NCBI GenBank assembly: GCA_977862235.1
Contig: OZ374557.1
Coordinates: 992,001 to 1,056,000, forward strand
DNA length: 64,000 nucleotides
Direction: 5' to 3'
DNA from: Dudresnaya verticillata
Lineage: Eukaryota
This document shows, piece by piece, positions 3,178 through 26,836 of the stretch. The notes beneath the pieces are model-generated. The model made no database searches. It was not told where the DNA came from and saw only the letters and a list, made by a program, of their open reading frames with translations. How positions within the stretch are numbered: position 1 is the stretch's first letter; each line of letters opens with the position of its first letter. Position numbers and translations under genes: made by a program.

Positions 3178-3600
3178 TTTGGTGTAGTGAAAAGTGTGGT
3201 GTAGTGAAAACCCACGAACTCCAAGACGGACATCTGGCTTGACTTTCCTTAACGGACGAGAGCAACACTATTACAAACAGTAACAAAACTGCACAGTGGC
3301 AAAATTACAAAGCGCCATAATAGCAGCTGACCTCAGCAATGTTTAATGAATTTTCAATCTACAAACGTGTTAGTCTTTATTGTAGTCTTTTCCTTAGTCT
3401 ATAGATTAAGTGCTAGTTTTAGTAAGTTCCATCGAGCTTTCTTTAACTACTAAAATTCTATAAAGGAGGTCTGCTCTCGACTCTCGTAGAGAAAGGGGGG
3501 CAAGCCGCAAAAGTCTGAAGCAAAAACTTCTGAGTCGGCGAGTCCAAGCAGTGTGTCAAAAGAACCGCGTGCTTCATCCACCACCCAAAAAAACCCAACA

Positions 3601-3689: not shown

Positions 3690-4477
3690 TGAGCGCCAGC
3701 CCGCCCAGCATTGAGCCGAATAAGGCTAAGCAGCCTTTGAAAACAGCAGCACCGAATACGTCAAATACCGAGAAAACAATTGAAAAAGCAGAGAGTGAAA
3801 AACCAGGAAAAGAGAAGTTTGTGGTGAAGTGAGATTCGGCATCCGAAACGGTGGAAATGCATATAGTGTGGCCTGAACCGTTGTGGGATGTGTGCACGTG
3901 TACCCGTGTCGGTTTTGGGTTTGTTGTGTGCTGGCTTACATTGCTGTGCAGCAGTGGAGCGCATCAACCGCGGCGGAGTATTTGTAGTGTTTATTCTTTA
4001 TTTTTAGTGAGTATCTGTACAGTATGTAGAGTAGTACGCCAGCCAATGAGAATGCTGCGCATGTCCGTGTCGGGTATTGGGACCAGCAGGGCCGATTCCA
4101 CCATAGGACCAGACCACTAGGGTCTGGCCCCCGCGGACCGGACCGCTCGGTGCCACCCTGACTTGTATATCAGGGCGGCACCGCAGCGGCTCCTAAGGTA
4201 AACGGGTAAGCAACCTTAGCCCAATCCTTTACGGTTTTCCCCGCGCCGAGCCCGTTGCGGTCTACCACCACCACCGTTACGGAGTCCGTCCCGGGACTTG
4301 TACCACCCCCTTGTCTGTTGCTTCCCAATATTCGTCTCGGTTAGCCGCTCGCTGTTCTCCCGTCTCGGTGCGAACTGCTCTACCACCCCGTGGAGGTAGT
4401 GTTTCTCTCGTCCGTTAAGGAAAGTCAGGCCAGCTGTCCGTCTCGGAGTTCGTGGGTTTTCACTACACCGCATCTTT

Positions 4478-4495
4478 TGGTCTCCCGACCTAGAA
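4478..4495 (+). other. 18-nt primer-binding site TGGTCTCCCGACCTAGAA (A1)
   Basis: 5 nt after the LTR-terminal CA. The identical 18-mer follows LTRs at 20096, 38946 and 41748. Confidence 0.9.
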
Positions 4496-4620
4496 CACCG
4501 TCACGGTTGGAAGAAACAGCCGTCGAAATCCGCTACGGTAGGAATTCGGCTGTACCGACAACCCGTTACGGAATATTGGATAGACAAGCAAGAACAACCG
4601 TTGTGTTCCGTTAAGGTATC

Positions 4621-7100
4621 ATGCAGAACGAAGAACACGCAGACCCTCCCGTTACGGAACCTAAAGCGGGTGACACTACCCCCGCTGCGCGCAGTCTACG
4701 CAGTGAAGGAGGTGAAATCCGTTCCGGAGTGGAGAACCCAGAAGACATCCTAAAGGGTGCTGCTGGTAAAGCTCCCCGTTCCCGTGTCGGATCAGACGCC
4801 TCGAAGAAGGCAGCTCCGCAACCCAAGCCGGAATCCCATCGGGTCCACTGGGTCTTGTCGGAGGTCCTTCCTAGGGTGTTAGAGCATCTCCGATTGGAAG
4901 TACAACCTGGAATGGTAAAAGAGGTGGAGATATCCCTCTCGGAAACTGTTCCGTCTTTGGTTAATTCCTATCTGGAGCAGCACCTTCCTCGGATAGTGCA
5001 AGCTTTGATCCTACAGGAAAAGGTGGCCGCCGAGCTCGAGAGCCAGATTGCTCCCGGCATGGCAAGGCCTCCCGCTACGGAAGCTTTCACTGAGCAACCA
5101 CCGTTACGGAATGAATTCCCGGTCGAGGGAAGAACGCAGCAGCCGCAAAAAAACCCGTTATGGGATTTCCGCCGGGCATAGTACCCTCTGGGCCACTGCC
5201 ACCGGCTCCCGTAACGGATTCTCAACATCAACAAGCCCCTACGGGACCAACACACACTCAGCCACCGTTACGGCATTCTCCTGGACACGTAGATGTGCCT
5301 ACGCCAGGGCGCTATCAGCAAGAGCGCTATACCGTTCCGGTTCGATCAGGTGGAGGCAGCGGCCATCTCAGCGATGCGTCCAGCTCACCCCATCCGAGTC
5401 GGAGGACCGGTCGAGGTCGGCATAGACGAGGTGCCGGACACTCCCGCTCTGACCCTCCCCGTCGGTCGCACATGGGCGACCACACCCAGCGACGACGCCA
5501 CCAATCTGGTATGGAATCCAATGAGAGCAGCTCAGAGGATAGCCAACACCGCCGCCGCAAGAGGAGAAACAGAAGATCGCGGAAACGCGAAAAAAGGCAT
5601 GACTCCTCTACCTCTACGGATTCAGACTCAGAGAGTTCTTCCGTAACGGATAGAGAGAATAGGCACCGGGCCAGAAAACACGGTGCCAAATCCGGAAATG
5701 TTAAGGTAATCCGGCCGCTACATGACAAGTTTGTCAAGGCGCTGGACTACCGCACCTACCGATTGGATAAGAGGAGTAAGACCTACGGCTCTAAGTTCTC
5801 ACAGAACATGAGCCGTATACGGAAGAAACTCGACGTCCAGATGTCGTCCCATACATTCGATGGGACGGACCCTATTACCATCTTGGGATTTCTCGCTAAG
5901 TTCCGTGACGGTTGTAACATCAACGGCATCGCCGAAGGGGTTGCCGTCTGGTGCTTCCAGTTTTTCCTTAAAGGACAGGCCGAAGCCCTTCTACAGGCTA
6001 GGCTTGCTGGAGGTACCATGGCGGTTGATGTGGAGCAGTCCGAGATGCTCCGCACATATTCCGAGGTGGTGAACTTTTTATTGAGAACCTACGCTACGGA
6101 TGAAGTGATTGCTGAAGCCTATACGGATGTCAGTAACTTCAGGAAAACATCCGCCGTGACGGAAGAGCAGTACTCGAACCAGCTCTGGGCCAAGGCACTC
6201 CGTTGCGGTACAGTATTTTCCGATCGGGCATTGAAGTCACTGTTCGTTGGAGGACTCCTACCGGGCACTCGTCAACAGATGAGAAATTATCTAGCAACGC
6301 ATTCCCAGTTGGATTATCAGGCCATCACTCGCTATGCGACTGGCCTGGGTCAGTCCCATCGGGCAGCTCGACGCCAAACCATTCCGGCTCACGTCTTTGA
6401 TGGGCGCACTAAAGCACGCCCGTCTAAGGTGTTATCGCTGGACTCCGTCTCGGATGTACACTATGATCCGCAAGCAGATCCTTCCGTTACGGATGCTCAA
6501 GTCTAAGCTGTCGAGGGAGGCCACGGTGCCGCTACGGGAACGAGCACGGGGGTTACCTTTTCTACCCCGTACTCCTCGCCCCCGCAAAGCGTCCACCCTA
6601 CTCCGCCCAGGATGCCACGCGCGCAAGGTCCCCTCTATGGTGGATCTCGCCCGGCTCCTGGCCCCCAACAGCAGCCGAGTCACCGTTACGGAAATAATGC
6701 CCACGACGGGAGAGGACAGTAGCAACCAGCACCTCCGCTACGGGATGAGTCGGATCCTCGGGTCCGACGCCTTTACGGAAGTGGTAACTGTCGCATCTGC
6801 CTTTCGCCAGAGCACGTTGTTTGCCCATGGATACATGACTCCGATCGGGTTAGGCTTATGGAAGAGCGCGAGCGCAACTTCCAGAAGCATTACCCTGTCG
6901 GCCGCAGGTTCGTAGTAGGCACCAGTTCGAATCCACAAGGGAATCGGGGCAGGCCGCATACGCCCCCTCCGCAACGGAATGCCCCGATACTATCGGTGGA
7001 GGACCATGACGGAATGGAACTCGCAGAATTGCGCGAGTCCATGGAGGCGGATCCGACTGGTGCAACCTTGAATTCGGAAAACTCAAGGGGGGATGCGTAA
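4621..7100 (+). pseudogene. gag: A1 gag (frameshift ~5150, in-frame stops at 6504 and 6720)
   Basis: Arg/Ser-rich region, capsid-like FDGTDPITILGFL..GVAVWCFQFFL, and knuckle-like CRICLSPEHVVC. Confidence 0.85.
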
Positions 7101-10100
7101 GGGCGCCGCCATCCCCGCCTCACGGCGTTCCACCTCTCGCGAGTGTGGACCCGCCAGGGGATCGGCGAGATACCGTTACGGAACTCCCATTGGCTTATCA
7201 GACCAATGATACTATCTGCTTTATGCAACATCAAAATTACAAGATGCAAATTACCGTGGGACGGACAGATAGCGTGATGCTTCCTTTAATCTCCGTCTTG
7301 GACTCTGGCGCTGGGCCCAATCTCATTAGTGCCAGGCGCCTTCCGCGCCAATGGCTCCCATTCATACGCCCAGCAACCAGTCCTGCATTACGGGATGCGT
7401 CTAATCGTGCTATACGCCCTCTTGGTCAGATCCAACTTTTCGTCCGTATCGGAGAGATCCGTGCTCGCGTTGATTTTCTAGTGGTCGCGAACTTGGCGGC
7501 TCCCTGTATTTTGGGAACTACCTTCATCGACCGCTACGTGAAGGCAATCCTCCCTCCGTTACGGAAAGTTGTCTTTCATCATTACCCACCGGTATCCCTT
7601 GTTGGTCAAGCCAAAATTCCAATGACGGGAACCACTGCAACCCTACAGCCCTCACCTCTTTCTACCGCTACGGTTTCTCAGAAAATTCGTTTAGCAAAAT
7701 CTACCCTTATTCCCCCTATGACTCAAACCACCGTAACGGTTAATACCCCCACGGGTGGGTTATTCTTTCTACAAAATCATCCTAAGCCGGCTTTTAAGCA
7801 CCTTACGTTAATGGCTAATGGTATTATGGATGTTGTACCTAAAAAATCGTTTCGGATCTGGGTCTCTAATGTTTCTGATAAGCCGGTACGGTTGCCCAAA
7901 TCTACTGTCGTGGGCCTCGCTACTTCTGACCCTTCTGCTATTTTTACCGTCAACGGTATACCTCCATTTAAGGAGGGGGGAGGAATTATTCAATCATTTA
8001 ATTCTAACCCTACCTCCGAAAAGGCCAGCAGCATCTCCCCTCACGACGAGGAAGTAAGCAAACCCGTAACGGAAAATACAAATACTACCGACTGGAAGGA
8101 TCAGGTCCAGATCGGCACAGAAGAAGCATCGCTCCGTAATTGGATTTTAACCCTACTCGAGGAATATAAGTCGATTTGGAGTGGCGATCTTGGCAACATG
8201 ACAGCTGCCAAGCACCGCATCGAGTTAACTCCCGGAGCTAAGCCAGTATACCAAGCCCCATACCGTGCCGGACATAAGCAGCGAGATCTCGAAAAGACAG
8301 AGATCGATCGCATGCTTTCCGCTAAGGTAATTGAACCAGCCTCATCGGAGTGGGCCAGCCCCGTGGTTTTCGTTCTAAAAAAGGACGGCACCATGCGGTT
8401 CTGTGTGGACTATAGAAGTCTCAATTCCATAACGGTTAGGGACTCATATCCCTTGCCCAGGATGGATGAGTGCATGGATTCCCTTGGGGAAGCTACTGTA
8501 TTTACCACCCTGGATTGCAATAGCGGATATTGTCAAGTCGAGATTCCGGAAGAGGAAAGGGACAAAACTACCTTCACTAGCCATTTTGGCTTATACCATT
8601 GTCGGAGAATGCCATTTGGATTGAAAAATGCACCGGCAACCTTCCAACGGGCACTGGATATAATCCTTTCTACGGTTAAATGGCAATTTGCCCTCGTCTA
8701 CCTAGACGATGTAATTGTCTACTCAAAAACAGTTACGGAACATTTCCACCACCTGAAGGAAGTCCTTACGCTTTTACGATCCGCTGGGGTAACGTTGAAA
8801 TTGTCAAAGTGTGACTTCTTCAACGCGTCTGTACAATACCTGGGGCATGTTATCCGTCCCGGAAAATTAGAAGTGGATAATCGGAATATCCAATCCGTTA
8901 AGGTCGCGAAGCCGCCGACTAACCAAACGGAATTGCGATCCTTCTTGGGAATGTGCAACGTGTATCGTCGCTTTGTACCCAACTTCGCTCGGATTTCAGC
9001 ACCGCTAAATAAGAAAACCGGCAAGGGCTTATCCTTTGAGTTTGGAATATTATCCGATACGGAATATGAAGCCTTCGAGGAATTGAAGAGATGCCTTATC
9101 TCTCCACCTATATTGGCTCTACCCCGTCACGGATATAAATATACGTTGGACACTGACGCATGTGACCATCAAGTCGGCTGTGTCCTTCTGCAGGAACAAC
9201 CGAATGGCGCTCACCTCCCTATTGGATACTGGAGCCGAAGCCTCACCGATGCGGAGAAAAATTATACGACAACCGAAAAGGAATGCTTAGCCGTGGTCTG
9301 GAGCATGTTAACACTCCGACCCTACCTTTTCGGTGACAAGTTTATTCTCCGAACGGATCACGATGCCCTGCGATGGATCCTGAACCTCGCAGACTCATCT
9401 GCCCGCCTAGCCAGGTGAAGGCTCCGCCTATCGGAATTTGAATTCGAGGTGCAATACCGTCCTGGAATTAAGCATCAACTCGCCGATGGGATGTCGCGAC
9501 TCCGAACGGATGGCAGTGACGATAGACCTTTGGATGAAGAAATACCTTGCTTTGTCGCCGAAAACACCGTCGACGGATTATATGAGCATGGAGTTTATTT
9601 AACCGATTGGGCTACATCACAAGAAACCGCTACGGAAAATAACGTAATATGCGCCGTGGCGCCCGCCAGTGGGAGTGCATCCGCCTCCCCTGACAAGCCC
9701 GACGCAATAACGTCACGGTTTACTGTAATCCAAGAATCCGACGTTAAGGATGAGACAATTACCAGAGAGGAGTTCCTTGAAGTGCAAGCCCGAGACCCTT
9801 TCTGTCGTCTCAAAGCCGATACGGTAGGCTCTCCTGGATCACAGTTTGACTATGACCGTAACGGATTCTTGGTGCGCAAGTCCCAATTGGATGGTGCTCT
9901 GCAGAAGGTGGTACCAAGCGAACTCTGTGGACGGGTATTGTATTTATCCCACTACACCCTGATGTCGGGTCACCCAGGCGGAATTAAGATGTATTATACA
10001 CTCCGACAGGATTATTATTGGCCTCATATGGCCAACGATGTATTTGAATCCGTTCGGACATGTCGCTCCTGCGTGAAGACAAAGGGAACCCGCTTTCGGA

Positions 10101-11412
10101 ATCAAAGGTTTATGAAACTATTCCCCGCTAGCGGACCTTTGGAGTTTGTCGCTATCGACATTCTCGGGCCACTTCCGAAGACAAAACGGGGTTATGTCTA
10201 CGTTCTAGTAATAACCGATCGGTTCTCTAAGCTGACGCGCTGTATTCCGTTACGGACAACAACAGCCGTTGTGGTGGCTAGCGCCTTCCTGGACTTTTGG
10301 GTGTATGCGTATGGCGCACCCCAATTTGTCCTAACCGATAACGGACCGCAGTTTACTGCCAAGTTCTTTGACGCAGTGTGTTCCTTACTCGGAGTCAGGC
10401 ATCTACTTACCGCTGCCTACCATCCGCAGACAAGTGGGCAAGCTGAGCGATTTTATAAGACAATCGCCCAACGTTTGCGCCATTACGTTGAGGATCATCA
10501 CTCCGATTGGGATTTGTACCTGCAACTGTTGACATATGCGTACAAGATGCAGGTACACCGTATTACGGAAACAACGCCATTTGATTTGGTGCTGACACGC
10601 CACCCATCGGGTATTGTTGTACGAGGGGCTCCTGTCGAGCATCAAGAAACCGTTACGGAAGGGCGTATGACCCTGGTGCTACAGAAGCGGAGCACTATGC
10701 GCCGTTTACGGTATGCGCTCCAGACAGCGCACACTAAGCAGACGGTGGCTCAGCAAAAAGCCAAGGCACTGTTTGACCGTAAGGTGTGCTTTAGGGCCAT
10801 AATCCGTAACGGAGATCAAGTCTATGTCGACAGGCCGCGCCATAACTTGCGGCCTGCCGAACGTCGTGAACGGGACCGATTGGAAGGTAACCGGATGATG
10901 TGGGCGAGGTGGCTCAGGAAATGAAGAAACTCCTTCCGAGAGCCACGGGGCCTTATGAAGTGGAATCCGCAACGGAACATGTCGTTACAATCCGCAAGGA
11001 AGGGGTATTGATCCCCGTAAGTATCGATCGCATCACGAAGGTTCCGATCGGAGTTGCGGTTCAGCCGGCATCCTTAACAGTGCCGCCTGTCACGCCATCA
11101 ACCGTCTACGGAGAAGTAGTGCCACATCCAGAAGGTACTACAGTAGTACCTCCTTCTGAAGGTACTACTTCCTCCGCGACGGAACCACTGCAAGCCGATA
11201 CGGAATATGTGATCGACAAGATTGTCGGTCACCGCGACGAACCTACTGGGATGACGTACAAAGTCCGCTGGTATGGTTACCCTCCGGATCACGATACCTA
11301 CGAACCCGCCGAGGAATTGCCGCAGAACTTCATCTACCGCTATTGGAAGCAAAAACGCAAGAGCTCCGCTAAGGGAAAGCCACTGCGACGCCCAGCCAAG
11401 GCACGCCGCTAA
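7076..11412 (+). pseudogene. pol: A1 pol: protease, RT, RNase H, integrase, chromodomain
   Basis: LDSGA; RFCVDYR, MPFGL, YLDD; TDACD, EKECLAV; H..HPG..CRSC, IDILGP, TDNG, QAER; EYVIDKIVGHR..YKVRWYGY. Stop at 9416 and frameshift near 10890. Confidence 0.95.
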
Positions 11413-13648
11413 CCGTAACGGAAAACAAGCTACTGTCGCTTGCGGTAATCGCAACTCCCCGCGATGTGGCGACCCGGTTACGGGAACTGCGTCTTGTCGA
11501 CGCCTGCTACCGTTACGGGATTTCGTTGTTGCTCAAACTGGGGCATACCGCTCCGTCACGGATTTTGCCAGCGTGGGTCGCGTACCCTGCTGCTGACGTG
11601 ACCCATTTCCCGAAACGGTACTCTCGTTTTTCCGCAATATCGCAGCAGGCGTACTCTGCCCAGGTTCCACCGCTTATGCGGCACTCTTCCTTCACGGAAA
11701 TCGCTCTGAACACCGCGTCAGCCACCGTAACGGTGTTCGTCGTCGACCTTTCCGGGAGGGGCACGCCTTTTTCTTGCCATGGGTGGCCGCCCCATCACGT
11801 TTGGGCCAAGAACGGCCCCTTCCGCGACGGTACAGGAAAATTCCTCGGTCTCATTATTCTTCTCAGAGTCCCGGGGTATATATTAATATTGATGTTAATA
11901 TTAATGTTTTCAATATATTATTATATTGAAAATAATATATTAACACCGTCGCGGGTTGGGTTCATCTCAAGAGGGAGAGGTTCGTGGTGTGTCTCATACG
12001 GGCAGGGGTGAAGGTATTCGTCTGTAACCGCTACGGATTCCTGAAACACGCCACCTGCGACGGTTTGTGGCGTACCTAGCCCCCCAACTTCTCGCCACCC
12101 AAGTCGGAACAACTTCCGTCAGGAGGTAGCGGGTGTGCAATACCGTCATCCGATCGGAGTACGCATTGTCCATTGTGGATATGGGAGCGTAATCGACTGC
12201 GCGTTCGAGCAGACAGTTGGGGAAACGTATTCCGCTACGGTGAGAGCAACACTCTCCAAGCGTTTTTGCTCCTTTACGTGTGGTAGGACCCCCATGTCGG
12301 ATTTTTGCAAATGCGGCTGTCTGTGAGGTGTCTGGATTGCAATCCCGTTACGGTGAACGAGGGGTAAGATCTGGCGTCTGCTCCGTTGACACACGGGAGA
12401 AACCCGTTGCGGATGTTTTATGAGGCAGAAGACTGGCGACCAGCCTGGGCAAGAAATCCTTGCGGATGGCTCGCGACACTCGCGTATGCATATAGTGTGG
12501 CCTGAACCGTTGTGGGATGTGTGCACGTGTACCCGTGTCGGTTTTGGGTGCATTGTTGTGTGCTGGCTTACATTGCTGTGCAGCAGTGGAGCGCATCAAC
12601 CGCGGCGGAGTATTTGTAGTGTTTATTCTTTATTTTTAGTGAGTATCTGTACAGTATGTAGAGTAGTGCGCCAGCCAATGAGAATGCTGCGCATGTCCGT
12701 TTCGGGTATTGGGACCAGCAGGGCCGATTCCACCATAGGACCAGACCACTAGGGTCTGGCCCCCGCGGACCGGACCGCTCGGTGCCACCCTGACTTGTAT
12801 ATCAGGGCGGCACCGCAGCGGCTCCTAAGGTAAACGGGTAAGCAACCTTAGCCCAATCCTTTACGGTTTTCCCCGCGCCGAGCCCATTGCGGTCTACCAC
12901 CACCACCGTTACGGAGTCCGTCCCGGCACTTGTACCACCCCCTTGTCTGTTGCTTCCCAGTATTCGTCTCGGTTAGCTGCTCGCTGTTCTCCCGTCTCGG
13001 TGCGAACTGCTCTACCACCCCGTGGAGGTAGTGTTTCTCTCGTCCGTTAAGGAAAGTCAGGCCAGCTGTCCGTCTCGGAGTTCGTGGGTTTTCACTACAC
13101 CACAAAGTTAACAAACGTGGAAAATAAGGACAGATGTTTGGCAAAATTTCCGAGTGCTTTAACGGGACCGACATTCAATATTAAAGCCAAGCCTAATGAC
13201 AGTAACAAAAAGTGTTTCCAGTGCGGTCACACTAAATTTGCCAACCAATGCTGGGACGACCATAACACATCCAAATTACACCTGGAAGAAATATTCAAGA
13301 GAGAAGGATTTAATACGGCTGTAAGCCATTTAGATCGCCAATACGACCGTTTTGTTAACATTAACTGCGACCTTTGTGGAACGCGTTACAGTAGCAAAAT
13401 ATTATTCAAAAATCACCAATACGGTGAGGAACATATTAGGTGAGGAAATCAGCTTCGTGACCTAGTTAAGGCAGCTGCTGGGAGTGGCTATATTGACAAG
13501 TGGCACATCATAGCTAAACCACCAAAAGTCTACGTTCGGGAGATTTCTAAGGTGCTCAGAAACTGCAAAAAATAAGAATTAAATTGATCTTTGTGGGATT
13601 GAAAAAATAAAATAAAATATATAAATAAAATATATTACAATTAGGAAA

Positions 13649-14514
13649 ATGGACGCCACACAGCAGGTCCAAAATTTACAGAATCAAGTACCCGCCTTAC
13701 AGCAACAGCTCGGACAGGCAAACCAGACCTTGCAAGAAGCAACACAGACATATCAAAATGTGACGCAATCAAACATCGGCAATAACCTAAGAACGGGTAA
13801 ACCTGATAAGTTCAGCGGTAAATTTGCTCGGAGTTGGGTTAAAGCCTTGAAAATATTTTCAATAGCCAGAACAATCCTGTACCTGAAGATAAAAAGGTTA
13901 AGTATGCCGTAAGCTATATGACTGGTGCTGGAATACAATGGTGGGAGTTAATAAGTTTAAACAACATTGATATACCAACATTTGAGATATTTAAGATTAA
14001 ATTGTTGGAACACTTTGAACCTGTAAACAGAGAGTTGAATGCACGTAAGATGCTAAATGAATTAAAACAAATGGGAAGCTTCAACACAGTTAGAAAATAC
14101 AACCAAGAATTCTCTACGTGGTTGTTACAGATACCGAGCATGGCTCCAGCAGAACAGATATTTCACTACAGTCAGGGCCTGAAACACAGGACCAGGGTGG
14201 AAGTGGAAAGGGCTTACCCCAATACCCTACAATAAGCTATGCAAATAGCGGATAGACTAGACAGTCTATATACTCCACGATTTGGGGGCAATGGTTTCCG
14301 CAATGGAAACGGAAATGGAAACTCATCAGATGGGCCAGTACCTATGCAGATTGGAATAATTCCCTAGAGACGAGGAAATCGCCTATCACCAGCAGAAAGG
14401 AAACGCTATATGGATGAAAATCTTTGTTTCATATGTGCACAAAAAGGGTGTTATGCAAGAAAACATTACAAAACTGGGGCCAGCCAAGCCGTAAAACAGG
14501 AAGAGAAAAACTAA
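13649..14514 (+). pseudogene. gag: B gag (frameshift and stops)
   Basis: KPDKFSG, YMTGAGIQWW, LKQMGS..YNQEF, GPVPMQIG, and a degenerate knuckle LCFICAQKGCYAR. Confidence 0.85.
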
Positions 14515-17500
14515 TTGCTCCGTTGAGTCACTTCGGCACGGCGACGGAGAAACAAACAATAGCCGAGGGTCAAGAAAAAGATACAAAAAATACAAAAACA
14601 TTGCAAAAACAAGAAAAAGAACAAAACGAGAGAGTAGTAGGTAGTATAAAAGTATGTGCATTTTCACCATACAAAAAGAGAAGGAAGTCCAGGCGACAAG
14701 CATTGTTGGTATACAATGGGACAGTACGAAGCGGTACCAGTAAATTCCATTGCAAGACGCTGGTAGACTCTGGTTGTGAAGAAATAGTAATGTCAAAGAA
14801 ATACGCAGACGCGTTGGAACTGCAGAGAGAAAAGACTGATCTCAACGTAGAATTATGGGACCAGACACTTGTTCCGATGGAAAGGGGTGTGGAGGATCTG
14901 GAATTGCGGATTGGAGAGGCCGTTATAATGGTCAGACCATATATAGTTGATTGGATCGCTTACGACTTAATCCTAGGCAAGACGTGGCTTTCTGAAGCTA
15001 ATGCAATAATCAACTGGAAGTTGAACCCATGCTCCTTAAGCAAGGGGACAGATTAATAGCTCTGGACGCAGAGGCTTGTAATCATGGGGCATCCCTCCCG
15101 ACATATGTGCTTACAAGTAAACAATTTAAGAGATTAGTGAGAAGAGAAAAAAGTGTGATATATCACATATTGGTAAAGAACGCCAAAGAATAAGAAAAAG
15201 AAGCAGGTAATAGTCCTGGGAACCAAACAGGTAACAGCCCTGGAAGTGAAGCAGGTAATAGTCCTGAAAGTTCATCAGGTAATAGCCCTGAAGAAGATGA
15301 ATATAAAACAAAACTAAATAAAATATTGGCGGAGTACAAAGATGTATTCCCAGTCCAACTACCAAAGGGTCTACCCCCGGAGAGGGTAGTGGAGATGAAA
15401 ATAAACTTGGAAGAGGGTGTGAGACCCAAAATGGGACCACTCTACAAGTTATCAAAAACAGAACTTGAAGAGATGAAAAAACAATTAGAGGAAGCCCTCA
15501 CGCAAGGGTTCATCCGACCAAGCATCAGTCCTTGGGGCAGTCCAGTACTGTTCACTCCTAAAAAGGATGGAGGACTGAGAATGTGTATTGACTATAGGGC
15601 ACTGAACAAACAAACTATTAAAAACCAGGTTCCATTACCGAGAATTGATGAGGTGTGGGATCAGATTGGGGGAGCGCAATACTTCTCTACAGTGGATCTA
15701 AGATCAGGATATCACCAAATTCGAGTACATGAGAATGATATTGAAAAAGCTGCATTCCGCACAAGATACGGACAGTTTGAATATCTTGTAACACCATTTG
15801 GGTTAACTGGAGCATCAGGGTGTTTCCAGACTTTAATGAACATTATTTTCCAACCCTATTTGGACAAATTCGTACTAGTGTACTTGGACGATATACTTAT
15901 CTACAGTAAGACAAAAGAAGAACACCTAGAACATATCAAAGTAGTGTTGAAATTACTTAGAGAAAATAAGCTTTATGGGAAACTATCAAAGTGTGAGTTC
16001 CTAAAACAGAATCTAGAATATTTAGGCCACATAATAAGTGATCGAGGAATACAAGTTGACCAAAGAAAAATCAAAGCAGTACAGAAATGGGAAGTTCCCG
16101 AAACCGTAACACAAGTCCAGAGTTTTCTAGGACTTTTCAATTATTACAGGAGGTTCGTGAAGAATTTGCTACTATCGCAACTCCTTTAACGGAGCTGACG
16201 AAAAATAAAAATGCCTTTGTGTGGGGTGAAAAAGAACAAATTGCCTTTGAACCGTTAAAAGAAGCTTTAACGAAAACACCTGTGTTACGTTGTGCAGACC
16301 CAGGTTTACCCTACGATATAACAGCTGACGCTTCTGGGACAGGAATAGGAGCTGTATTATCACAAAAAGATGAACTGGGAATCCGACCAGTGGCTTATGC
16401 ATCAAGGAAATTGAATCCTGCAGAGCAAGGTTACAGTACCCATGAGCGAGAGCTATTAGCTATTGTGTATGCATTACAGACGTGGAGATCTTATCTACAT
16501 GGAGCTAAGTTCAAAATACATACAGATCACCATCCACGGAAGTACTTGGATACACAAAAGACCCTATCACGTAAACAAGCGAGGTGGGTTGAGTTTATGC
16601 AAGAGTTTGATTACGAAGTACACTATATCAAGGGAAAAGAAAACAAAGTCGCAGACGCTCTCTCTAGGAAGTACAAGGAAGTGTATAAGACATCCACCTC
16701 CTTCATATCAAAATTAATGACGATAACTACCGTATCCGTCTCAGAGCGGGTGCTTAAACGATTAGAAAAGGAGTATCTCGAAGACGAGAAATTTAAAGAA
16801 CATTACAATAAGCCATCAGAACCGTATAAGCGGAAGGACAAGAGACTTTATTTCGAAAATAGATTATGCCTACCAGAAGGCGAGACAAGAAAAACAGTGC
16901 TACATGATAACCATGAGTCCTTAATTGGAGCACACCGAGGTTACAAACGGACGCTTCATAATATATCGAGCCATTACTTCTGGCCAAACATGAAAAAGGA
17001 AGTTTACAACTATGTAAAGAGTTGCCAGAGGTGCCAAGAATCGAAAAGCAGAAACCAAAAGGCGCCAGGAACTAGTCGACCATTCCCTCCGCCAACACGT
17101 AAGTGGGAGGAAATATCCATTGACTTCATTTTTGACCTACCTAAGACGAAACGGAACAAAAACGCCATCATGGTTGTGGTGGACAAATTATCGAAACGAG
17201 CGCACTTTATCGCTCTAGAACCCAACTTTAACGGATTCAACGCTGCGCAGGTATTTTACGAGGAAGTATACAAACATCATGGAATACCGAAAAAATTATA
17301 TCAGATAGAGATACCCGCTTTACGGGGACATTTTGGCAAGAGCTGATGAAATTGCTGCAAGTTAAGCTGAATCTTTCAACCGCATTTCATCCACAGACAG
17401 ATGGCCAATCCGAGCGAGCGTTTAGGACGCTTGAAGAAATGTTGAGATGCTTCATCTCTAGTACACAGAAAGATTGGGACAAATACCTACCCGGAGTTGA

Positions 17501-18164
17501 ATTTGCATACAACAACTATACAAACGAGACAACCAAAAACAAGCCTTTCTATTTGGAATACGGACAACATCCATTAACAGTTTCCGATATACTACATACG
17601 GAACACTCAGTTAATGACCAATCCCAAACCTTCTTGGAGGACATGAAGAAGGCAAACGAGATCGCCCAACAAGCAATTAGAGATACAAACTTGCATACAC
17701 AGGACACAGAAAATGGAAACGAAAAACAATACGAAGTCGGAGACCACGTGATGTTATCAACTAAGAACCTACCCAAACCACTCGGTAAAACCAAGACATT
17801 CCTTCCGAAGTTCATTGGTCCATTCACCATCGTTAACAAAGTAGCTGACGGCAGAGCCTATCGACTAGAACTGCCATCCGAATATAAGGAGCTACATCCT
17901 ACATTTCATATTTCGTTACTCAAGCCTTATATGGACGACCAACATTAGAGAAATGTTCCAAAAAAGCTTCATTTAGGAAGATCACCTACAGGAAGACGCA
18001 TTGAGAAGATCGTCGCACACCGCCTACATGAAGGTCAAGTCGAGTTTCTAGTGCATTTTAGCAACACTGATGCCATTGAAAACACATGGTTACCTGAAAA
18101 CGAAGTCGCACAGCTTCCAGCGCTTATCCATAACTACTTCAACAAGTTATTCGAGGACGAGTAA
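14505..18164 (+). pseudogene. pol: B pol: protease, RT, RNase H, integrase with GPF motif, chromodomain
   Basis: LVDSGC; RMCIDYR, GYHQIR, YLDD; ADASG, ERELLA; HRG..CQRC, IDFIF, QSER; PKFIGPF; IEKIVAHR..FLVHF..NTWLP. Several frameshifts and stops. Confidence 0.95.
15200..15295 (+). repeat. Four 24-bp tandem repeats in the B protease-RT spacer
   Basis: Core CAGGTAAYAGYCCTG repeated four times at 24-bp spacing, encoding xxGNSPx. Confidence 0.8.
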
Positions 18165-20208
18165 GACAATTAAGAGGGGAGGAGTTGTTACAAACAGTAA
18201 CAAAACTGCACAGTGGCAAAATTACAAAGCGCCATAATAGCAGCTGACCTCAGCAATGTTTAATGAATTTTCAATCTACAAACGTGTTAGTCTTTATTGT
18301 AGTCTTTTACTTAGTCTATTGATTAAGTGCTAGTTTTAATAAGTTCCATCGAGCTTTCTCTAACTACCAAAATTCTATAAAGGAGGTCTGCTCTCGACTC
18401 TCGTAGAGAAAGGGGGCAAGCCGCAAAAGTCTGAAGCAAAAACTTCTGAGTCGGCGAGTCCAAGCAGTGTGTCAAAAGAACCGCGTGCTTCATCAACCAC
18501 CCAAGAAACCCAACAGTAAGTTTATTCATTACAGTGCTATCTGAGCCGCGACAAACACTACCTCCACGGGGTGCTAGAGCAGTTCTCACCGAGACGGGAG
18601 AACAGCTAGCGGCTAACCGAGACGGATATTGGGAAGCAACAGACAAGGGGGTGGTACAAGTGCCGGGACGGACTCAGTAACGGTGGTGGTGGTAGACCGC
18701 AATGGGCTCGGCGCGGGGAAAACCGTAAAGGATTGGGCTAAGGTTGCTTACCCGTTTACCTTAGGAGCCGCTGCGGTGCCGTCCTGATATACAAGTCAGG
18801 GTGGTACCGAGCGGTCCGGTCCGTGGGGGCCAGACCCTAGTGGTCTGGTCCTATGGTGGAATCGGCCCTGCTGGTCCCAATCTCCGACACGGACATGCGC
18901 AGCATTCTCATTGGCTGGCGCACTACTCTACATACTGTACATATACTCACTAAAAATAAAGAATAAACACTACAAATACTCCACTTCGGTTGGTGCGCTC
19001 CACTGCTGCACAGCAATGTACGCCAGCACACAACAATGCACCCAAAACCGACACGGGTACACGTGCACACATCCCACAACGGTTCAGGCCACACTATATG
19101 CATTTCCATCGTTTCGGATGCCGAATCTCACTTCACCACAGACCCCTCCTTAAATGGCGCCACGTCCTCGTGCGCCCACCTTCAAGGGGTTGCGGCTTGG
19201 GTCCGACGCACCGTCATCGGATTCGAGCAGCTTTTCCAGGTCCTTCGTCAACTGGTCTACTGCCGCCACGGTTTGCTTCGATGCGTTGGGAAACCCCACG
19301 CACCTCCAATACCAGGACTTCCGTCACGGAGAATAACCAAAACGCGCTTGACGCGAGTGTCGCGAGCCATCCGCAAGGATTTCTTGCCCAGGCTGGTCGC
19401 CAGTCTTCTGCCTCATAAAACATCCGCAACGGGTTCCTCCAGTGTGTCAGCGGAGCAGACGCCAGATCTTACCCCTCTTTCACCGTAACGGGAGTGCAAT
19501 CCAGACACCTCACAGACAGCCGCATTTGCAAAAATCCGACATGGGGGTCCTACCACACATAACGGAGCAAACCCTCTGTAATACAGTGAAGGGCTTACAG
19601 AAATGGGCCCTCTGCACCCCTGTATGCGGGGAAATAGCGTTACCTATAGGGCGCCAGCAGGGACAAGATGGGTAGTCTATGATTGGTCCAAGTGTCACCC
19701 TGCAGGTCAGTAGCTTAGTATCTGCCTATTTATTTTAGAAATTAAGCTTAGGATAGGGGCGTGTATATAGCCCAGTATGAGGGGTGCTGCCTGACAGTCG
19801 GAGTACCATATAAGGGTATCTCCCGTAGCGGTCACTGAACAGTAAAGGTAAGCACCTTCCGGCCCCAACTACGTCTCCAAGCTATCGGCTCCGCAGCACA
19901 CTTGTCACTCGTGCCCGGTTAACCACCCGCCCAGTGAACTACCTTCAGTATCGTGCTTCCAATCAGGTTACGTGCCCTCGTCTACCCTCTGGGTTCCTCC
20001 CGCTCTACCACCGCTACCAGGTACCCGCTCTGTGGCTTTCTCATTGAGTGCACTCTTTGAGTTCACAAGAGACCTAAAAGGCACTTCCTTACATCTGGTC
20101 TCCCGACCTAGAACTTCAAGATTGGTGAGCCGTTAAGAGGACGACGAATATCGTAACCCAATTGGATACTGAAGAAAATCAACCCACCAAGGCCCCTGTT
20201 ACTCCAAG

Positions 20209-22225
20209 ATGTCAACTCACTCTCAAAGTAGTTCCCGTCGTGGTCAGAAGGCGGAGCAGACCCCATTGGTCCCCCCAGTTGAGGACCCGGAGTCTTTGCT
20301 CCACCCTCCGAGAACTCCTGGAGTAGAAAAAGAGGAACCGCCTGGTCAAGCATCCACCAATCCCGTAACAGGTAAACCCTTAGCAGGTCCTTCCAAAGAA
20401 GTCGCAAGGCAGCCTCCGCTACATTCCAACCGTAACCATTGGGTCAATACTGATCTGATGCCCCGTCTGATCAACTGGCTACATGATGAGTTGACCCTTC
20501 GGTTACCTCAAACGGTTGAACCACTAGTGGGACACTTTCTAGAAGAACAAGGTCCAAGGACACTCTCGGAGTTTGCCGCCACGGCTACTGACAAGGTAGT
20601 CCAGTCATGGACCACCCAGCCGGACAGTAGCCCAATCTATGGGATGCTTACCAAAATGGTTCCCCCGTTGGTCTCTCAGTCTCTCGAGGCCTATGGGCAA
20701 GCAGCGGACCCTTCAACTGGACCAAAGTCTATACCCACAGGGGAAACCAAAGTGGAAAAGAAGGAGGATGATGTCGTCCCTCCTGGCATCGTTCTACGAA
20801 CCGAAACTGGTGATACAAACAAGAAACCCGAAGGGGGTTTTTCGGACTCCGAAGGTAGTAAGAGTAACCGACATGGATCGAAGTCCAAGAATTCTAAAAA
20901 GAAGAAGAAGGACAAACACAAGAAAAATAAGAAGAAACATTACTCATCTGAGTCTGACGCATCGTCAGTTACCTCAGATGGTTCAAGTTCGGATGATTCA
21001 TCCGATGCTGACCGACGGCGTCGCCGCCGGTCGTCTAAGTCCACAAGGGTGAGGGGGATTAAACCCCTCAACGACCTATTTACCAGAGTGGTTAGCTTTC
21101 AAAGTTACCGATTAGACAACCGCTCAAGGCTTTACTCTTCGAGAATCTCTCGGAAAGTAGATACCTACTATAAGAGGATGGCTATTCAGATGCCACCCTC
21201 TCGGTTTCGGTGTAGACCCGATTAACATCTTGGGTTTCCTTGCAAGGTTCAAGGATGCCTGTAATCACAATGATGTCCATGAAGGAGCTGCCGTTTGGTT
21301 ACTACAATACTTTATGACAGGCACCGCAAGGGACAACCTTCAGGCGAGGTTACAGACAAGAACCAGTATGGTCGTGGACTCCGAAGATGAGGGAGATTTG
21401 TTGACAACGTACCCCGAAGTGGTTAATTACCTTTTGGAAACTTATGCCACCGATGAGGTTATTGCGCTAGCCTATGCTGACGTAATCTCGTTGCGACAAG
21501 CAGAAGGAAAACGGAACGGGACTTCGCAGAGTTTTGTAAGAGCCAGAGCTCGCCGTTGCGGGTCGGTGTTTACAGAACACCGCCTCAAGGCGATCTTCGT
21601 TGATGGGCTCCTCCCGAGTATCCGTGCACCGGTTCGTAACCGGTTGGCTTCTTCAAAGAGTTTTTCCTATACGCAGATCACACAATATGCACAAGACCTT
21701 GGGGAAGCTCATAGGAGTACACGTGGGACGACAAACCTAAAAGGTAAAAGGGGAGTAATTCCCGTCGCCGCGGTTAGCTTCGAGAAACCACCGTCTCACT
21801 CCGCGAGGACGTCGACAGCTACCTCCAAGGGTTTACCGGGCATGGAAGACACTCATGAAGAGGAGATTTTCCAACTCGGTGAAGATTTATTCAACCAGTC
21901 TATGACACCCCCGTCTTCAATATCCACAGTGGGATCCCGAGATGGTGCACCGATACGGGCATGTTGGATCTGTGCTAACCCAGGCCATATGGAACATGAA
22001 TGTCCATTGGTAACCCCCGCGGTGCGCGCTGGCATAATTGCTTCCAGAAGGCAAAACCTCTATGGTTTAGCTAGAGCCCGAGCCATGCCAGGTAATCGAC
22101 AAGGTAACCCCGGGGCCTCCTCCTCAACAGGCCATCCGGGGCCCATCCAGGCTAAACGCACGGGATCACCCTCAGTGGAGCCCTCAAAGGCCGCTCAAGG
22201 AGTTTCCATTGCGGAAAACGTGTAG
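20209..22225 (+). pseudogene. gag: C gag (one frameshift ~21210)
   Basis: Homologous to A gag (LGFLARFKDACN..EGAAVWLLQYF, YATDEVIA). CCHC knuckle CWICANPGHMEHEC. Confidence 0.88.
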
Positions 22226-25200
22226 GAGGAGGCATAACGACGCATGCCCCCTCCCCAAATATGCGCCTTCCAGAACCGGTGTTACGACCCGATATCGTGG
22301 ATAACCAGGAGAGTGATGACTATGATGAAGTATGTTTACTTAAGAAGCAAAAATACAAAGTGGATCTATCGTTAGGGGTCTGGTCGTCTCAGATGATATC
22401 CGCAAGGGGCGTGATTGATTCTGGCGCCGGACCCAATCTGGTTGATGTTAAAATGTTACCTAATGGTTGGGAAAAGCGAGCCAAACCCTATAAGGAAACC
22501 ACGCGTAGCATCGTCGACGCTTCTAATAATCGAATATTACCTCTAGGAGTCATCCCCTTATATATCCGTGTCGGTAATCTCTATACGAAGACCCATTTTC
22601 TGGTTGTGGCTAATATGCCTGCCGAAGTTATACTTGGAACAGCCTTCATAGATCGACATGTCACAGCCATCATGCCGGGACCCCGAAGGTTACTCTTGAA
22701 GGATGCCCCAGCAGTACCTATCCTCGGTGTTTCCATGGGAGGGGTTACTGTTCCCGGCGCTACACAACCAACAGTTTCTACCAAAGTGAGAATAGCCAAA
22801 GACTGGGTCATACCTCCTAGGTCACGTTCGTTCGTGCCGGTGAGAACCAGCGCCTCTGGATTATGCCTGGTTCATAATACCCCGCGGTCACTACACAAGT
22901 CGTTAACCATTATGGCAAACGGGATCAGGGATGTTCTTCCGATGGAAGTTTTTCCTGTGCTAATGACCAATTTTGGTGATCGCCCTGCTCGCTTGAACAA
23001 GACTCAAGTAGTAGGCCATGTGTTACCAAGACCGGATCAGGTTTTGAGTATTGGAACTCTACAATAAGATCCCCGGTCGGATACCCCGGGGGAGAACTCA
23101 AAAGCGGAATCCGGTTGGGAAGACACTGTCCATATAGGTGTCGAAGACAGTGCTACTCGATCCCAAATAATGGAAAGGCTTCAAGAGTATCAAGAAATGT
23201 GGTCAGGCCAACTGGGGACCATTAAGGCCACTCAGCACAGGGTTGAGTTGATGGAAGGGGGAAAACCCATCTATCAACACCCTTACAGAGCTGACCCTAA
23301 AGCTCGAGAAGCCGAAAAGGCGGAAGTACAACGAATGTTACGCGAAGGCGTTATTGAACCCTCTGGGGCAGAATGGGCCAGTCCTGTAGTCCTTGTGTCC
23401 AAACCTGATGGGTCTCTGCGTTTTTGCGTCGACTATCGTCGACTTAATAGTATTACTCGACGAGATTCATATCCGTTACCTCCAATGGACGAATGTATCG
23501 ACTCACTGGGAGATGCTAAGGTATTTACGACGCTCGACTGTAATAGTGACTATTGGCAAGTTGAAGTCGATCCCGACGATCGCGATAAGACGACGTTCAC
23601 CTGCCACGAAGGGTTATACCGTTTTATCAGGATGCCATTTGGTCTCAAGAATGCGCCCGCCACATTCCAACGGACAGTCGACATTATGCTATCTCGATGC
23701 AAGTGGCAATACGCTTTGGTTTACCTCGACGACGTTATCGTGTACTCTCGGAGTATTAATGACCACTTCAACCATTTAGGTACTGTGCTTGATCTACTAA
23801 GAACCGCTGGGGTTTCTCTTAAGTTGTCTAAGTGTAAGTTCTTCGAAGCGTCCGTCGATTACCTCGGCCATATCATACGCCCAGGAAAGCTTGAAGTCGC
23901 CTCCAAGAACGTTACCGCACTAGGCCAGGCGAAACCTACCACGGATCAAACCGAGTTAAGGTCATTTCTTGGAGTATGTAACGTCTATCGACGTTTCGTC
24001 CCCAATTATGCACGAATTGCGTCTCCCCTCTCCAGGAAACTTCGCAAGGATCAACCCTTCACTTTTGAGTCACTCACAGAGGATGAGTACGACGCCTTCG
24101 ACGAACTCCGGCGTCGTCTTTTAACGGCACCCATATTGGCGTTACCTCGAAAGGGATTCCGTTATTATGTTGATACCGATGCGTGCGACCTTCAGGTTGG
24201 CTGTTGCTTACTTCAAGAAACAGAACAAGGGGATAAGCTGCCTATTGGTTATTGGAGTCGCACTCTTAATTCCGCCGAGCGTAATTATTCGGCCACCGAA
24301 CGGGAATGTCTCGCCGTTGTATGGAGTCCTTTAACACTCCGACCTTACCTTGAAGGTGACCGCTTTACGGTTAGAACCGACCACGAACCTCTTCAGTGGT
24401 TGTTAAACCTCTCGGATGCATCGGATCGCCTAGCACGTTGGCGATTAAGACTCTCGGAGTTCGACTTCCTAGTCACCTACAATCCTGGAAGGGAACATCA
24501 TTTGGCGGACACCATGTCACGGCTTTCGACTATAGGGAGTGACCAAACACCATTAGATGATGACATCCCCTGTTTTACCCTCGCGGTTGAAAATAGCACC
24601 CCGCTTCAGCTTAATTTACCTACCGTCCGTGACTTGGCAAACCAAAAAGGTTTACCCCGTCAGGTTAGTAAGCAAGAACTCCTCGGGGCACAATAAAGGG
24701 ATGAGTACTGCCAAAAGATGGCTAACCAAGTTGGTATCGCTGGCTCTCAATTTCAGTGGGACCATAATGGTTTTCTAATCCGCCAAGCGACACTCAATGG
24801 AGCACTTCAGATAGTGGTGCCAAAGTCCCTGCGTCCCCGCATCCTATACTTAGCCCACTATCCTCTCCTTTCTGGACACCCTGGTGGTTCAAGAATGTAT
24901 TATACCCTCCGGCGACAGTTTTATTGGCCGTATATGGCTAATGACGCATATGCCGTTATGGGTGACTGTACTAAGTGTGTCCAAAATCAGGGTACCTTAC
25001 GGAAACATCAGAACTACCTTAAGCTATTTCCCGCCGCTGGGCCACTGGAATTCCTTGCTATGGATCTCGCGGGGCCTTTTCCAAAAACAGAACACGGCAA
25101 CCGTTTCGTCTTGGTTATTACCGATCGGTTTTCTAAGCTTACACGCGCCATACCTTTACGGAATACCAATGCCCGCACGGTTGCGCAAGCTTTTCTGGAC

Positions 25201-26200
25201 CACTGGGTCTACCCTTACGGTGTTCCGTTATATGTGCTTTCCGATAATGGTCCACAGTTCGTGTCAAAGTTCTTTGCCACGATCTGCCAAACCCTGGGGT
25301 TACGGCAGCTATTCACAACCGCTTACCACCCCCAGACCAATGGACAGGTCGAACGGTTCAATAAGACTCTCGTCCAGCGGTTACGTCATTACGTCGCAGA
25401 TCATCAGCGTGACTGGGACAGTTACGTGCATCTGCTTACCTATGCGTATAACCTTCAGGTTCACCGCTCTACGGGTACCTCACCCTTCGATCTCGTCCTA
25501 TCCCGGCAACCTTCGGTTATACCTCTACAGGGTTCTCCCACAACGGGCTTTACCAATCAGTTGGATTCTCAACTCACCGCTGCTTCTGTTAAGCTTTTAA
25601 CCATTCAGAAACTTCGACAGGCTATTGCTACCGCTAAGGTCACCATCACGGCTGCCCAACAACGTTACAAATCTGCCTTTGACACCTCCGTGGCACGGCC
25701 CTTCTCGGTTACTGTTGGTGATTGGGTCTACCTCGATCGCCCTAAGTTCACTAAACGCCAAGTGGGTGAACTACAGGCATCTCTCGTGGACCCCGTTGAG
25801 GAACAGAACCTTTCGAGGAAACTTTTGCCCAAAGCGACCGGACCCTTTTTGGTTACCGCCGTTCATGCCAGCCATACGGTTACTATTACGTAATATGGGC
25901 TTTTTAATACCGTTTCACAAGACCGCATTTCGGTTGACCCTCATCGTGGTCCCCGCGCCCCTCTGGACGACCCTGAGCTTACTCAGGATCCCCCATCGGC
26001 TCCTCCGCCGCCTACGGCGACCGCCCACTCGGATTACTATACAGTTGACCATTTGGTTAAGCACCGTGTCACTGACCGTGGGTACCAATATAAGGTTCGC
26101 TGGTATGGTTAAGCCCCTAACGACGATACTTGGGAGCCACCCGCGCACATCCCTCTCAATTTTGTGTTACGCTACTGGCGCCGGCTTGACAAGACGCCAC
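22213..26200 (+). pseudogene. pol: C pol: protease, RT, RNase H, integrase, chromodomain (several in-frame stops)
   Basis: IDSGA; RFCVDYR, YLDD; TDACD; HPG..CTKC, MDLAGP, SDNG, QVERFN; ATGPF; YKVRWYG..DTWEP. Stops at 23065, 24694, 25891 and 26110. Confidence 0.95.
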
Positions 26201-26836
26201 CGCCTGGAGCTGGGGGTGTGGACTTCGTGCATTTTCGCAGGCTTCATGGGCTTTCGCGGACTCCAAAGTATCTCGTGAAGCGTCACTTAGGGAGTTAGCG
26301 TCACCCAATCAAAAGGTCTCGCGACGGCGTTATCTCCTAGAGTCAAAATGGAACAGCACCAAGTCTCTCTCCCTTCACTTTCTCTATTTATTTTACGCTA
26401 CTTACCTACAGTACTACTGTACTCTCATAGAAACCAAGACAAAGGAGAACCACTCAGGGAGATATGACACAAGACACAAGATGTTTATTGGACACTCTTC
26501 AGATCACCCTTGAGGTTCATCTATTAGGAATACCTACTGGTAACGGGAACGTTTCTCAGCCAACTCCTCGACGTCAGCGGAACGTGAAGACGCACAGCGA
26601 CGGGGCTGAAAAGGGGAAGCCCGACGAGTCGCCGCAGGCGTAGTAACTACAGGAGTCGCCTCGCGCAACGCCACCCGACTCCCTGATACCACGGGAGAAG
26701 CCCTACTGGTAGCAACCCCGGTAGAAAGGGGCTACGTTACCTTATAGGTCGAGGGGCCAGCGGGAGTCTCCTTAGGCTGTCCCCCCATAACCACGTTGGT
26801 AAGGTCCGCAGGGGCAGCGGATTGCTGTTCAGCTCC

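What the first reader, a model, noticed from the sequence alone, without database searches (positions are those of the whole stretch)
3820..13104. Element A is saturated with the palindrome CCGTWACGG, including inside gag and pol
By eye there are at least 22 exact CCGTTACGG/CCGTAACGG sites in 9.3 kb (e.g. 4274, 4563, 4649, 5101, 5209, 5265, 5641, 6484, 6683, 7173, 7556, 7731, 8064, 9856, 10804). There are also many one-off variants (CCGCTACGG, CCGTSACGG, CCGATACGG). About 0.07 are expected at uniform composition. They occur in LTR, UTRs and different reading frames, and I saw no exact site in B. Established analogy: Arabidopsis VANDAL elements accumulate short motifs bound by their VANC anti-silencing proteins; TAACGG is also a MYB/MSA core. 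Inference: a family barcode for a dimeric DNA-binding factor.
Basis: partly seen in the sequence, partly recalled or inferred. Interest (0 to 1): 0.78.

Follow-up and report, generated by a model that had tools for sequence, protein, structure and literature searches.

The report
Retrotransposons studded with family-specific palindromes
A jumping gene, probably from a red seaweed, carries one short palindrome about every 130 bases, even inside its protein genes, and about half of its relatives carry different short palindromes, likely self-recognition marks read by a protein that has not been found.

Summary
Element A, a Ty3/gypsy chromodomain retrotransposon (3820-13104), has 22 exact CCGTWACGG sites and 72 CCG-N3-CGG sites. 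All 38 exact sites in the window lie in A-family DNA (18.5 kb); none lie in the other 45.5 kb. In A's coding DNA there are 13 exact sites against 0.5 under synonymous shuffles (0 of 2000 reached it). Sites use all three frames, and 13 of 16 compatible peptides use the exact motif. Sister element B carries other palindromes on the same CC-N5-GG frame. Among relatives, 34 of 69 close ones and 0 of 59 distant ones have excess perfect 4-bp-arm inverted repeats with 3- or 4-nt spacers in coding DNA. These are strictly Watson-Crick and show no clear strand bias, and their sequences mostly vary. A is the sequence-fixed extreme of this clade trait. It differs from VANDAL (sites dispersed, in coding DNA, no tandem origin, no extra gene in A) and is not a MYB-core effect. 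No reader was found; the clade's unnamed antisense protein is missing from A and does not track the trait. Best guess (0.4): a DNA-level self-mark read by a dyad-binding protein. Rivals: RNA packaging stem-loops, mutational drive.

The parts
3820..13104 (+). Element A, Ty3/gypsy chromodomain LTR retrotransposon, 5-bp target duplication AAGTT; 22 exact and 72 CCG-N3-CGG sites
3820..4472 (+). 5' LTR of A; about 15 CCG-N3-CGG sites per kb
4478..4495 (+). Primer-binding site, identical in A and B
   Evidence: the tRNA it matches was not tested
4621..6950 (+). gag region (long low-complexity N-terminus with a helical repeat, capsid-like part, Cys/His knuckle by eye); frame broken in this copy; 6-9 sites per kb
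   Evidence: (weak Retrotrans_gag hit on A')
7274..11412 (+). pol: protease-like start (by eye), RT, RNase H, integrase, chromodomain; broken by a stop and a frameshift; 4-6 sites per kb, mostly at variable residues or reached by synonymous codons
11413..12485 (+). 3' untranslated region, about 10 sites per kb; no homologue of the clade's antisense protein
12486..13104 (+). 3' LTR of A (its 5' end and the polypurine tract are deleted); 7 differences in 616 nt from the 5' LTR
29466..37146 (-). A', second family copy (97% identical to A), LTR and internal part; 15 exact sites
18554..19576 (-). 3' end and 3' LTR of A' (split from the rest by B, and interrupted by C, with the remainder at 3190-3270); 1 exact site at 19483
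19577..29465 (+). Element B, sister family (about 50-53% amino-acid identity in pol) nested in A'; no exact site; own palindromes ACC-N5-GGT (34 vs 5.2) and CTC-N3-GAG (20 vs 2.7); shares the CC-N5-GG peak with A
26837..28495 (-). Antisense ORF of B (552 aa): unnamed clade-wide domain with a confident predicted fold; candidate reader, not supported for A
13110..18553 (+). Element C, distant gypsy (about 36% identity) that hosts A; internal control with no motif and no inverted-repeat excess

Best explanation
Element A is saturated along its whole length with a fixed-spacing palindrome that is likely a family self-recognition mark, likely selected site by site and likely read on DNA by a two-fold symmetric protein of the element's lineage that has not been identified. 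Shown: the saturation, the family restriction, survival of codon controls, the imprint on the protein sequence, the dispersed non-tandem origin, and the related inverted-repeat excess in half of the close relatives. Point mutations that create a site at a tolerant position are then kept. A would be the state with one sequence fixed, B the state with two, and most relatives a state in which pairing matters more than sequence, possibly as tiny hairpins on either DNA strand.
For: Fixed half-sites at one spacing with a loose centre. Single variants at the inner G are equally common on both halves whether or not they could pair (CCA/CGG 9, CCG/TGG 7, CCT 7, AGG 9, CCC 6, GGG 8, about 3 expected each). 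The outer W/W positions are independent (paired 45 vs 47.3 expected). No G.U gain in A (11 vs 15). In relatives, perfect pairs are 2.78-fold, G.U 1.11-fold and C.A 1.09-fold. No sense/antisense difference in predicted hairpin formation (A p=0.65-0.68; 744 hairpins of seven relatives p=0.09). 13 of 16 compatible peptides use the exact motif, and A's pol has 6.5 compatible peptides per 1000 aa against a mean of 1.05, with 0 of 120 homologues as high. Density follows coding constraint: 10-20 per kb non-coding, 4 per kb in RT and integrase. Spacing is slightly more even than random (CV 0.77, P=0.03). Families in one window or one assembly differ, which points to a family-level rather than host-wide cause.
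Against: No reader was found. The only extra gene of the clade is absent from the three A-family 3' regions here. It is present in 8 relatives with no inverted-repeat excess. Relatives have about 41-49 distinct arms among 53-56 repeats and covarying arms, which a single sequence-specific dimer does not predict. Purifying selection is not shown: A vs A' share 34 of 40 sites, no better than neutral decay. The L089/L090 retention of 10 of 15 sites (P=1.6e-5 raw) falls to P about 0.05-0.06 once ascertainment is allowed for. A's centre has a mild sense bias (symmetry test p=0.035; CTA 8, TAG 0). No helical phasing. The genome-wide background could not be measured.
Confidence: 0.4

Rival explanations
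1. The sites are tiny RNA stem-loops (in A a CCG/CGG stem with a UUA/UAA/CUA triloop) that act as many dispersed packaging or Gag-binding signals, letting each family select its own genomic RNA.
For: One mechanism would cover the whole clade. Arms covary in relatives (L089/L090 inner pairs 43-50 vs 19-20 expected over all four pair types; L078 outer pair 48 vs 22). In B, ACC/GGT 34 and ACT/AGT 16 have only 5 hybrids. Spacers of 3-4 nt are the smallest hairpin loops (established knowledge). Enrichment needs at least 2 G-C pairs in most groups. Mild sense bias in A's centre. Small G.U excess in odd-spacer relatives (122 vs 102; C.A 117 vs 117). The analogy to dispersed packaging signals of RNA viruses is recalled, not read.
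Against: G.U is no commoner than C.A overall (1.11 vs 1.09), including at the fifth outer pair. In A no other stems close TWA loops (3 seen, 3.3 expected), and no general excess remains once CCG is removed (z 0.7). The hairpin is predicted at P>0.5 for only 6 of 64 sites, with no sense advantage and no help from the flanks. Compensatory changes are not in excess of a rough expectation.
Confidence: 0.25
2. Mutational drive: the family's reverse transcriptase or a repair step creates or perfects short inverted repeats (fold-back copying), so sites pile up without function, as proposed for the origin of HIP1.
For: Strict Watson-Crick symmetry with arbitrary sequence and no strand bias in relatives. 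Selection is not demonstrated. No measurable cost to the protein. A mutational ratchet has been proposed for HIP1 (PMC5861425, section 25).
Against: No overwrite signature: where a relative differs at two arm positions, both lie on one arm in 35% of repeats vs 42% of background windows in close pairs, and 34% vs 37% in distant pairs, with no 5'/3' bias. Fold-back copying would not single out CCG (64) over other G+C-rich arms (8 or fewer), nor give the base preferences at unpaired flanks.
Confidence: 0.2
3. The sites bind a host transcription or chromatin factor (MYB-type or another dimer) that the family has hijacked to stay expressed.
For: Highest density is in the LTR and UTRs. A encodes no extra protein.
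Against: Lone CCGTTA/TAACGG is not enriched (6 vs 5.4), and 43 of 64 sites are not the exact motif. Other elements in the same window lack the motif. Geometry changes by subclade within shared assemblies. Sequence-diverse paired arms in relatives do not fit host factor motifs.
Confidence: 0.1

Closest known systems
VANDAL transposons and VANC anti-silencing proteins (Arabidopsis; PMC5735166, passages read)
   Same: Short motifs in many copies, differing between related families of one transposon group.
   Different: Here the sites are palindromic, dispersed, made independently and half in coding DNA, and A has no extra gene.
HIP1 of cyanobacteria (PMC5861425, abstract and section 25)
   Same: A hyper-abundant palindrome within and between ORFs, replaced by other palindromes in some lineages, with function unresolved.
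   Different: HIP1 is genome-wide in bacteria, ungapped and shown to be conserved. This motif is confined to one retrotransposon family within the window, is gapped, and its conservation is not established.
Antisense additional ORFs of Retand/Grande/RIRE2 gypsy elements (PMC7264820 parts 1-2 of 3; PMC11963269 passages)
   Same: B and at least 19 related loci carry a conserved antisense ORF between pol and the 3' LTR, function unknown; DNA binding has been predicted for the Retand domain.
   Different: The domain here has no Pfam match and no clear structural match, occurs in chromodomain elements, is missing from the A copies, and does not track the palindrome trait.
Dispersed stem-loop packaging signals of single-stranded RNA viruses (recalled; two papers sought by DOI were not held)
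   Same: Many small, degenerate hairpins spread through coding RNA.
   Different: As recalled, those conserve the loop and tolerate stem changes and G.U. In A the arms are fixed, and G.U is not favoured anywhere in the clade.

Membership tests
Ty3/gypsy chromodomain LTR retrotransposon | LTRs, target duplication, primer-binding site; RT-RNase H-integrase order; C-terminal chromodomain | tested here: met
VANDAL/VANC anti-silencing system | Motif specific to a family among related elements | tested here: met
VANDAL/VANC anti-silencing system | Motifs confined to non-coding regions and amplified as tandem repeats | tested here: not met
   35 of 64 sites in coding segments; no shared flanks beyond 2-3 nt, longest shared stretch 15 nt
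VANDAL/VANC anti-silencing system | Element-encoded sequence-specific binding protein | tested here: inconclusive
   No extra ORF or remnant in A, A' or the third 3' fragment; copies elsewhere in the genome could not be searched; binding is untestable here
VANDAL/VANC anti-silencing system | Loss of silencing marks on target copies | not testable with these tools
   No reads or methylation data; CpG observed/expected is about 1.0 and CpG is not hypermutable between A and A'
HIP1-type iterated palindrome | Over-represented in coding DNA in all frames beyond codon usage | tested here: met
HIP1-type iterated palindrome | Genome-wide abundance | tested here: not met
   0 exact sites in 45,514 nt outside the A family; window only
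HIP1-type iterated palindrome | Sites conserved by selection | tested here: inconclusive
MYB/MSA element | TAACGG core enriched independently of palindromic context | tested here: not met
   6 lone cores vs 5.4 expected
RNA stem-loop packaging signals | Covarying stems | tested here: inconclusive
   Absent in A; present in B and relatives
RNA stem-loop packaging signals | G.U tolerated on the sense strand; sense-strand folding advantage | tested here: not met
   the test is weak for marginal 3-4 bp stems
Integrase target-site consensus | Motif matches the family's own insertion sites | tested here: not met
   Flanks of the A and B insertions do not match CC-N5-GG; n=2

The most novel reading that the evidence does not exclude
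A lineage of probably red-algal chromodomain retrotransposons writes a family identity code into every part of its genome, genes included: dozens of mini-palindromes whose geometry and sequence co-evolve with an element-encoded reader. This would be a HIP1-like whole-genome self-mark in a retroelement, letting each family protect, package or unsilence only its own copies.
Probability: 0.4. Interest if true: 0.88.

Novelty: new variant of a known kind. Interest (0 to 1): 0.74.

Why it matters
How a retrotransposon tells its own genome from those of other families is usually credited to LTR ends and a local packaging region (established knowledge). Saturating reverse transcriptase and integrase genes with a family-specific palindrome, strongly enough to show in the protein sequence, implies a selective or mutational force acting on every copied base. 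The clade offers natural contrasts: one fixed motif (A), two motifs (B), sequence-free paired arms, and a subclade with none. A reader with changeable palindrome specificity would be a retrotransposon counterpart of VANC. The unnamed antisense domain is a separate uncharacterised protein family.

Tried and rejected
Genome-wide background: no genome is held for this window. Sequencing runs: none was listed, which is no evidence. Earlier scan findings: nothing in three look-ups. Literature: the exact 9-mer occurs in 61 papers, and none of the 20 listed concerns retrotransposons by title. Searches listed nothing that describes this trait by title or abstract start; the library lacks most subscription papers, and no supplements were read. 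Tandem or duplication origin: rejected. Helical phasing: none. CpG methylation decay: none seen. Integrase target match: rejected on two sites. Amino-acid cost at sites: not detected (p=0.54). Fold-back overwrite signature: none. That protein had no hit in the word-based search, only unnamed or low-sharing Atlas rows, no Pfam family beyond weak coiled-coil hits, no solved sequence relative, no Foldseek match and a best VIA Z of 4.6; this shows neither a new fold nor a function. A homodimer prediction for it gave no verdict. Gag N-terminal helical repeat: no Pfam hit and no homologues; the Atlas query on it did not complete. My early reading that sites are under strong purifying selection was weakened by the ascertainment correction. 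My early reading that every family has one fixed motif was overturned.
Full report
Observation. The window holds 38 exact CCGTWACGG sites, 22 of them in 3820-13104 at the coordinates given. Expectation is 0.07-0.08 from base composition and 0.16 from an order-2 Markov model, against 21 observed with one LTR. The underlying motif is W-CCG-YNR-CGG-W: 72 CCG-N3-CGG sites in A, 64 with one LTR against 5.4 expected. Spacing is strict, with at most 9 sites at any other spacer from 0 to 11. All 38 exact sites lie in 18,486 nt of A-family DNA and none in the other 45,514 nt; for CCG-N3-CGG the split is 132 to 15.

Anatomy. A is a Ty3/gypsy element with RT, RNase H, integrase and chromodomain hits, a 5-bp target duplication and LTRs 1.1% apart. 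It sits in a distant gypsy element C, which sits in the 3' LTR of A', a 97%-identical copy on the minus strand. B, a sister family with the same primer-binding site, is also nested in A'. LTR divergences (A 1.1%, B 1.7%, C 1.9%, A' 3.6%) fit this order. Both A copies are broken by stops and frameshifts. The host is inferred to be a red alga: the only eukaryote named among 120 listed pol homologues is Agarophyton chilense, in two rows.

Codon controls. In 6000 nt of A's coding segments, analysed as they lie, the exact motif occurs 13 times against 0.51 under synonymous shuffles, and CCG-N3-CGG 35 times against 4.3; 0 of 2000 shuffles reached either, and all three frames are used. Of 16 peptides that could encode the exact motif, 13 do. 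A's pol has 6.5 such peptides per 1000 aa against a mean of 1.05 in 120 homologues, none as high (regions are not exactly matched). Sites fall mostly at variable residues and do not depart from homologues more than other positions. Density is 10-20 per kb in LTR and UTRs and about 4 per kb in RT and integrase. Flanks are unrelated beyond 2-3 nt, so sites arose independently. Lone MYB-type cores are not enriched (6 vs 5.4).

B and the clade. B lacks the exact motif but has ACC-N5-GGT (19 vs 4.0 in coding DNA) and CTC-N3-GAG (8 vs 1.3), again 0 of 2000 shuffles. A and B share a CC-N5-GG peak (150 vs 49 and 135 vs 57) that C and the flanks lack. I fetched 164 related loci. Of these plus A, B and C, 128 had at least 2000 nt of coding match and 39 were dropped: 69 close (RT identity 48% or more, with A and B) and 59 distant. 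For single 3+3 palindromic motifs, 5 of 69 and 0 of 59 passed log P<-4, and non-palindromic control pairings gave none. For any perfect 4-bp arms with a 3- or 4-nt spacer, 34 of 69 and 0 of 59 exceeded z=4; A itself scores 3.5 and B 3.1 on this general measure. These elements are not independent: they fall into about six subclades, each with its own geometry, and one large subclade lacks the trait. In those relatives the arms are diverse (for example 41-49 distinct arms among 53-56 repeats) and covary. In A no general excess remains after removing CCG (z 0.7); in B some does (z about 3). A is therefore the sequence-fixed extreme of a clade trait. The motif-by-locus table used motifs chosen from the same loci and is descriptive only.

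DNA or RNA. Pooled over the 34 positives, perfect pairing is enriched 2.78-fold, one G.U 1.11-fold and one C.A 1.09-fold. The fifth outer pair shows no G.U preference. Predicted hairpin formation does not differ between strands for A or for 744 repeats in seven relatives (p=0.09). In A, inner-G variants are symmetric regardless of pairing, and the outer W/W bases are independent, as expected for a duplex site. Against this, covariation in B and relatives, a G-C threshold in most groups, a mild sense bias in A's centre (p=0.035) and a small G.U excess in odd-spacer relatives keep the RNA hairpin reading alive. The G.U test is weak for such short stems.

Selection or drive. A and A' share 34 of 40 sites, about neutral decay. 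L089 and L090 (73% identical) keep 10 of 15 sites against a 16% background, but only P about 0.05-0.06 after allowing for ascertainment. Fold-back copying predicts differences clustered on one arm; none was seen, and it would not single out CCG among G+C-rich arms. Selection is thus inferred from specificity and peptide occupancy, not shown.

Reader. B carries a 552-aa antisense ORF between pol and the 3' LTR. Its N-terminal domain recurs in at least 19 loci and in 60 protein-cluster representatives, and folds confidently (pLDDT 91). It has no Pfam name; three relatives show weak coiled-coil hits. Antisense ORFs of unknown function are known in plant gypsy elements, and VANC21 is predicted to dimerise through a coiled coil (PMC13547354 passages). 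A review reports DNA methylation with small RNAs on transposons in one red seaweed and H3K27me3 on repeats in another red alga (PMC8566409 passages), so an anti-silencing role is possible, but nothing here tests it.

Comparison. The pattern works like HIP1 in invading coding DNA and like VANDAL in being family-specific, but fails defining tests of both (not window-wide; not non-coding tandem repeats). Searches listed no description of it in the held library. Also consulted without bearing on the claim: bioRxiv 2026.08.24.746577 (abstract), PMC12859917 and PMC12786077 (passages). No supplements were read.

Verdict. Mechanism odds: DNA-level self-mark with a dyad-binding reader 0.40, RNA stem-loop tags 0.25, mutational drive 0.20, host factor 0.10. 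Interest 0.74.

Noticed in passing
window 26837-28495 (-); L089:7213-10233, L086:10134-12692, L036, L028, L009 and others: Clade-wide antisense ORF between pol and the 3' LTR with an unnamed W-rich domain (pLDDT 91, no Pfam name, no clear fold match); a protein family worth study in itself.
   Followed up: yes
L019, L027, L030, L032, L041, L042, L078; L086-L090; L001, L003, L010, L033; L036, L052, L056: Subclades with a 2-4-fold excess of perfect short inverted repeats in coding DNA, each with its own arm and spacer geometry; a sister subclade (L002, L005, L018, L024, L025, L057 and others) has none.
   Followed up: yes
L009: Carries CCGASTCGG, the same 3+3+3 geometry as A with a different centre (8 of 20 CCG-N3-CGG sites listed).
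   Followed up: partly
window about 4800-5050 and 20390-20620: Gag N-terminal helical repeat shared by A and B (32% identity), followed by Ser-rich and Arg/Lys-rich stretches; no Pfam hit and no homologues found.
   Followed up: partly
window 11880-11945: A+T-rich self-complementary block in A's 3' UTR, conserved in A', just downstream of a short antisense frame (11994-12347) with no database match.
   Followed up: partly
window 38164-38924 and 62954-63705: Inverted pair of about 770 nt at 75% identity, enclosing Copia RT fragments (47801-48961 +, 54647-55255 -), a DDE_1 fragment (39409-40263 -) and a gag-like hit (42897-43214).
   Followed up: no
window 58979-59196: Imperfect tandem repeat with a period of about 29-63 nt.
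   Followed up: no
L086-L096 and other genome-contig loci: Eukaryotic gypsy retrotransposon contigs lie inside bacterial MAG records, probably host contamination of those bins.
   Followed up: no
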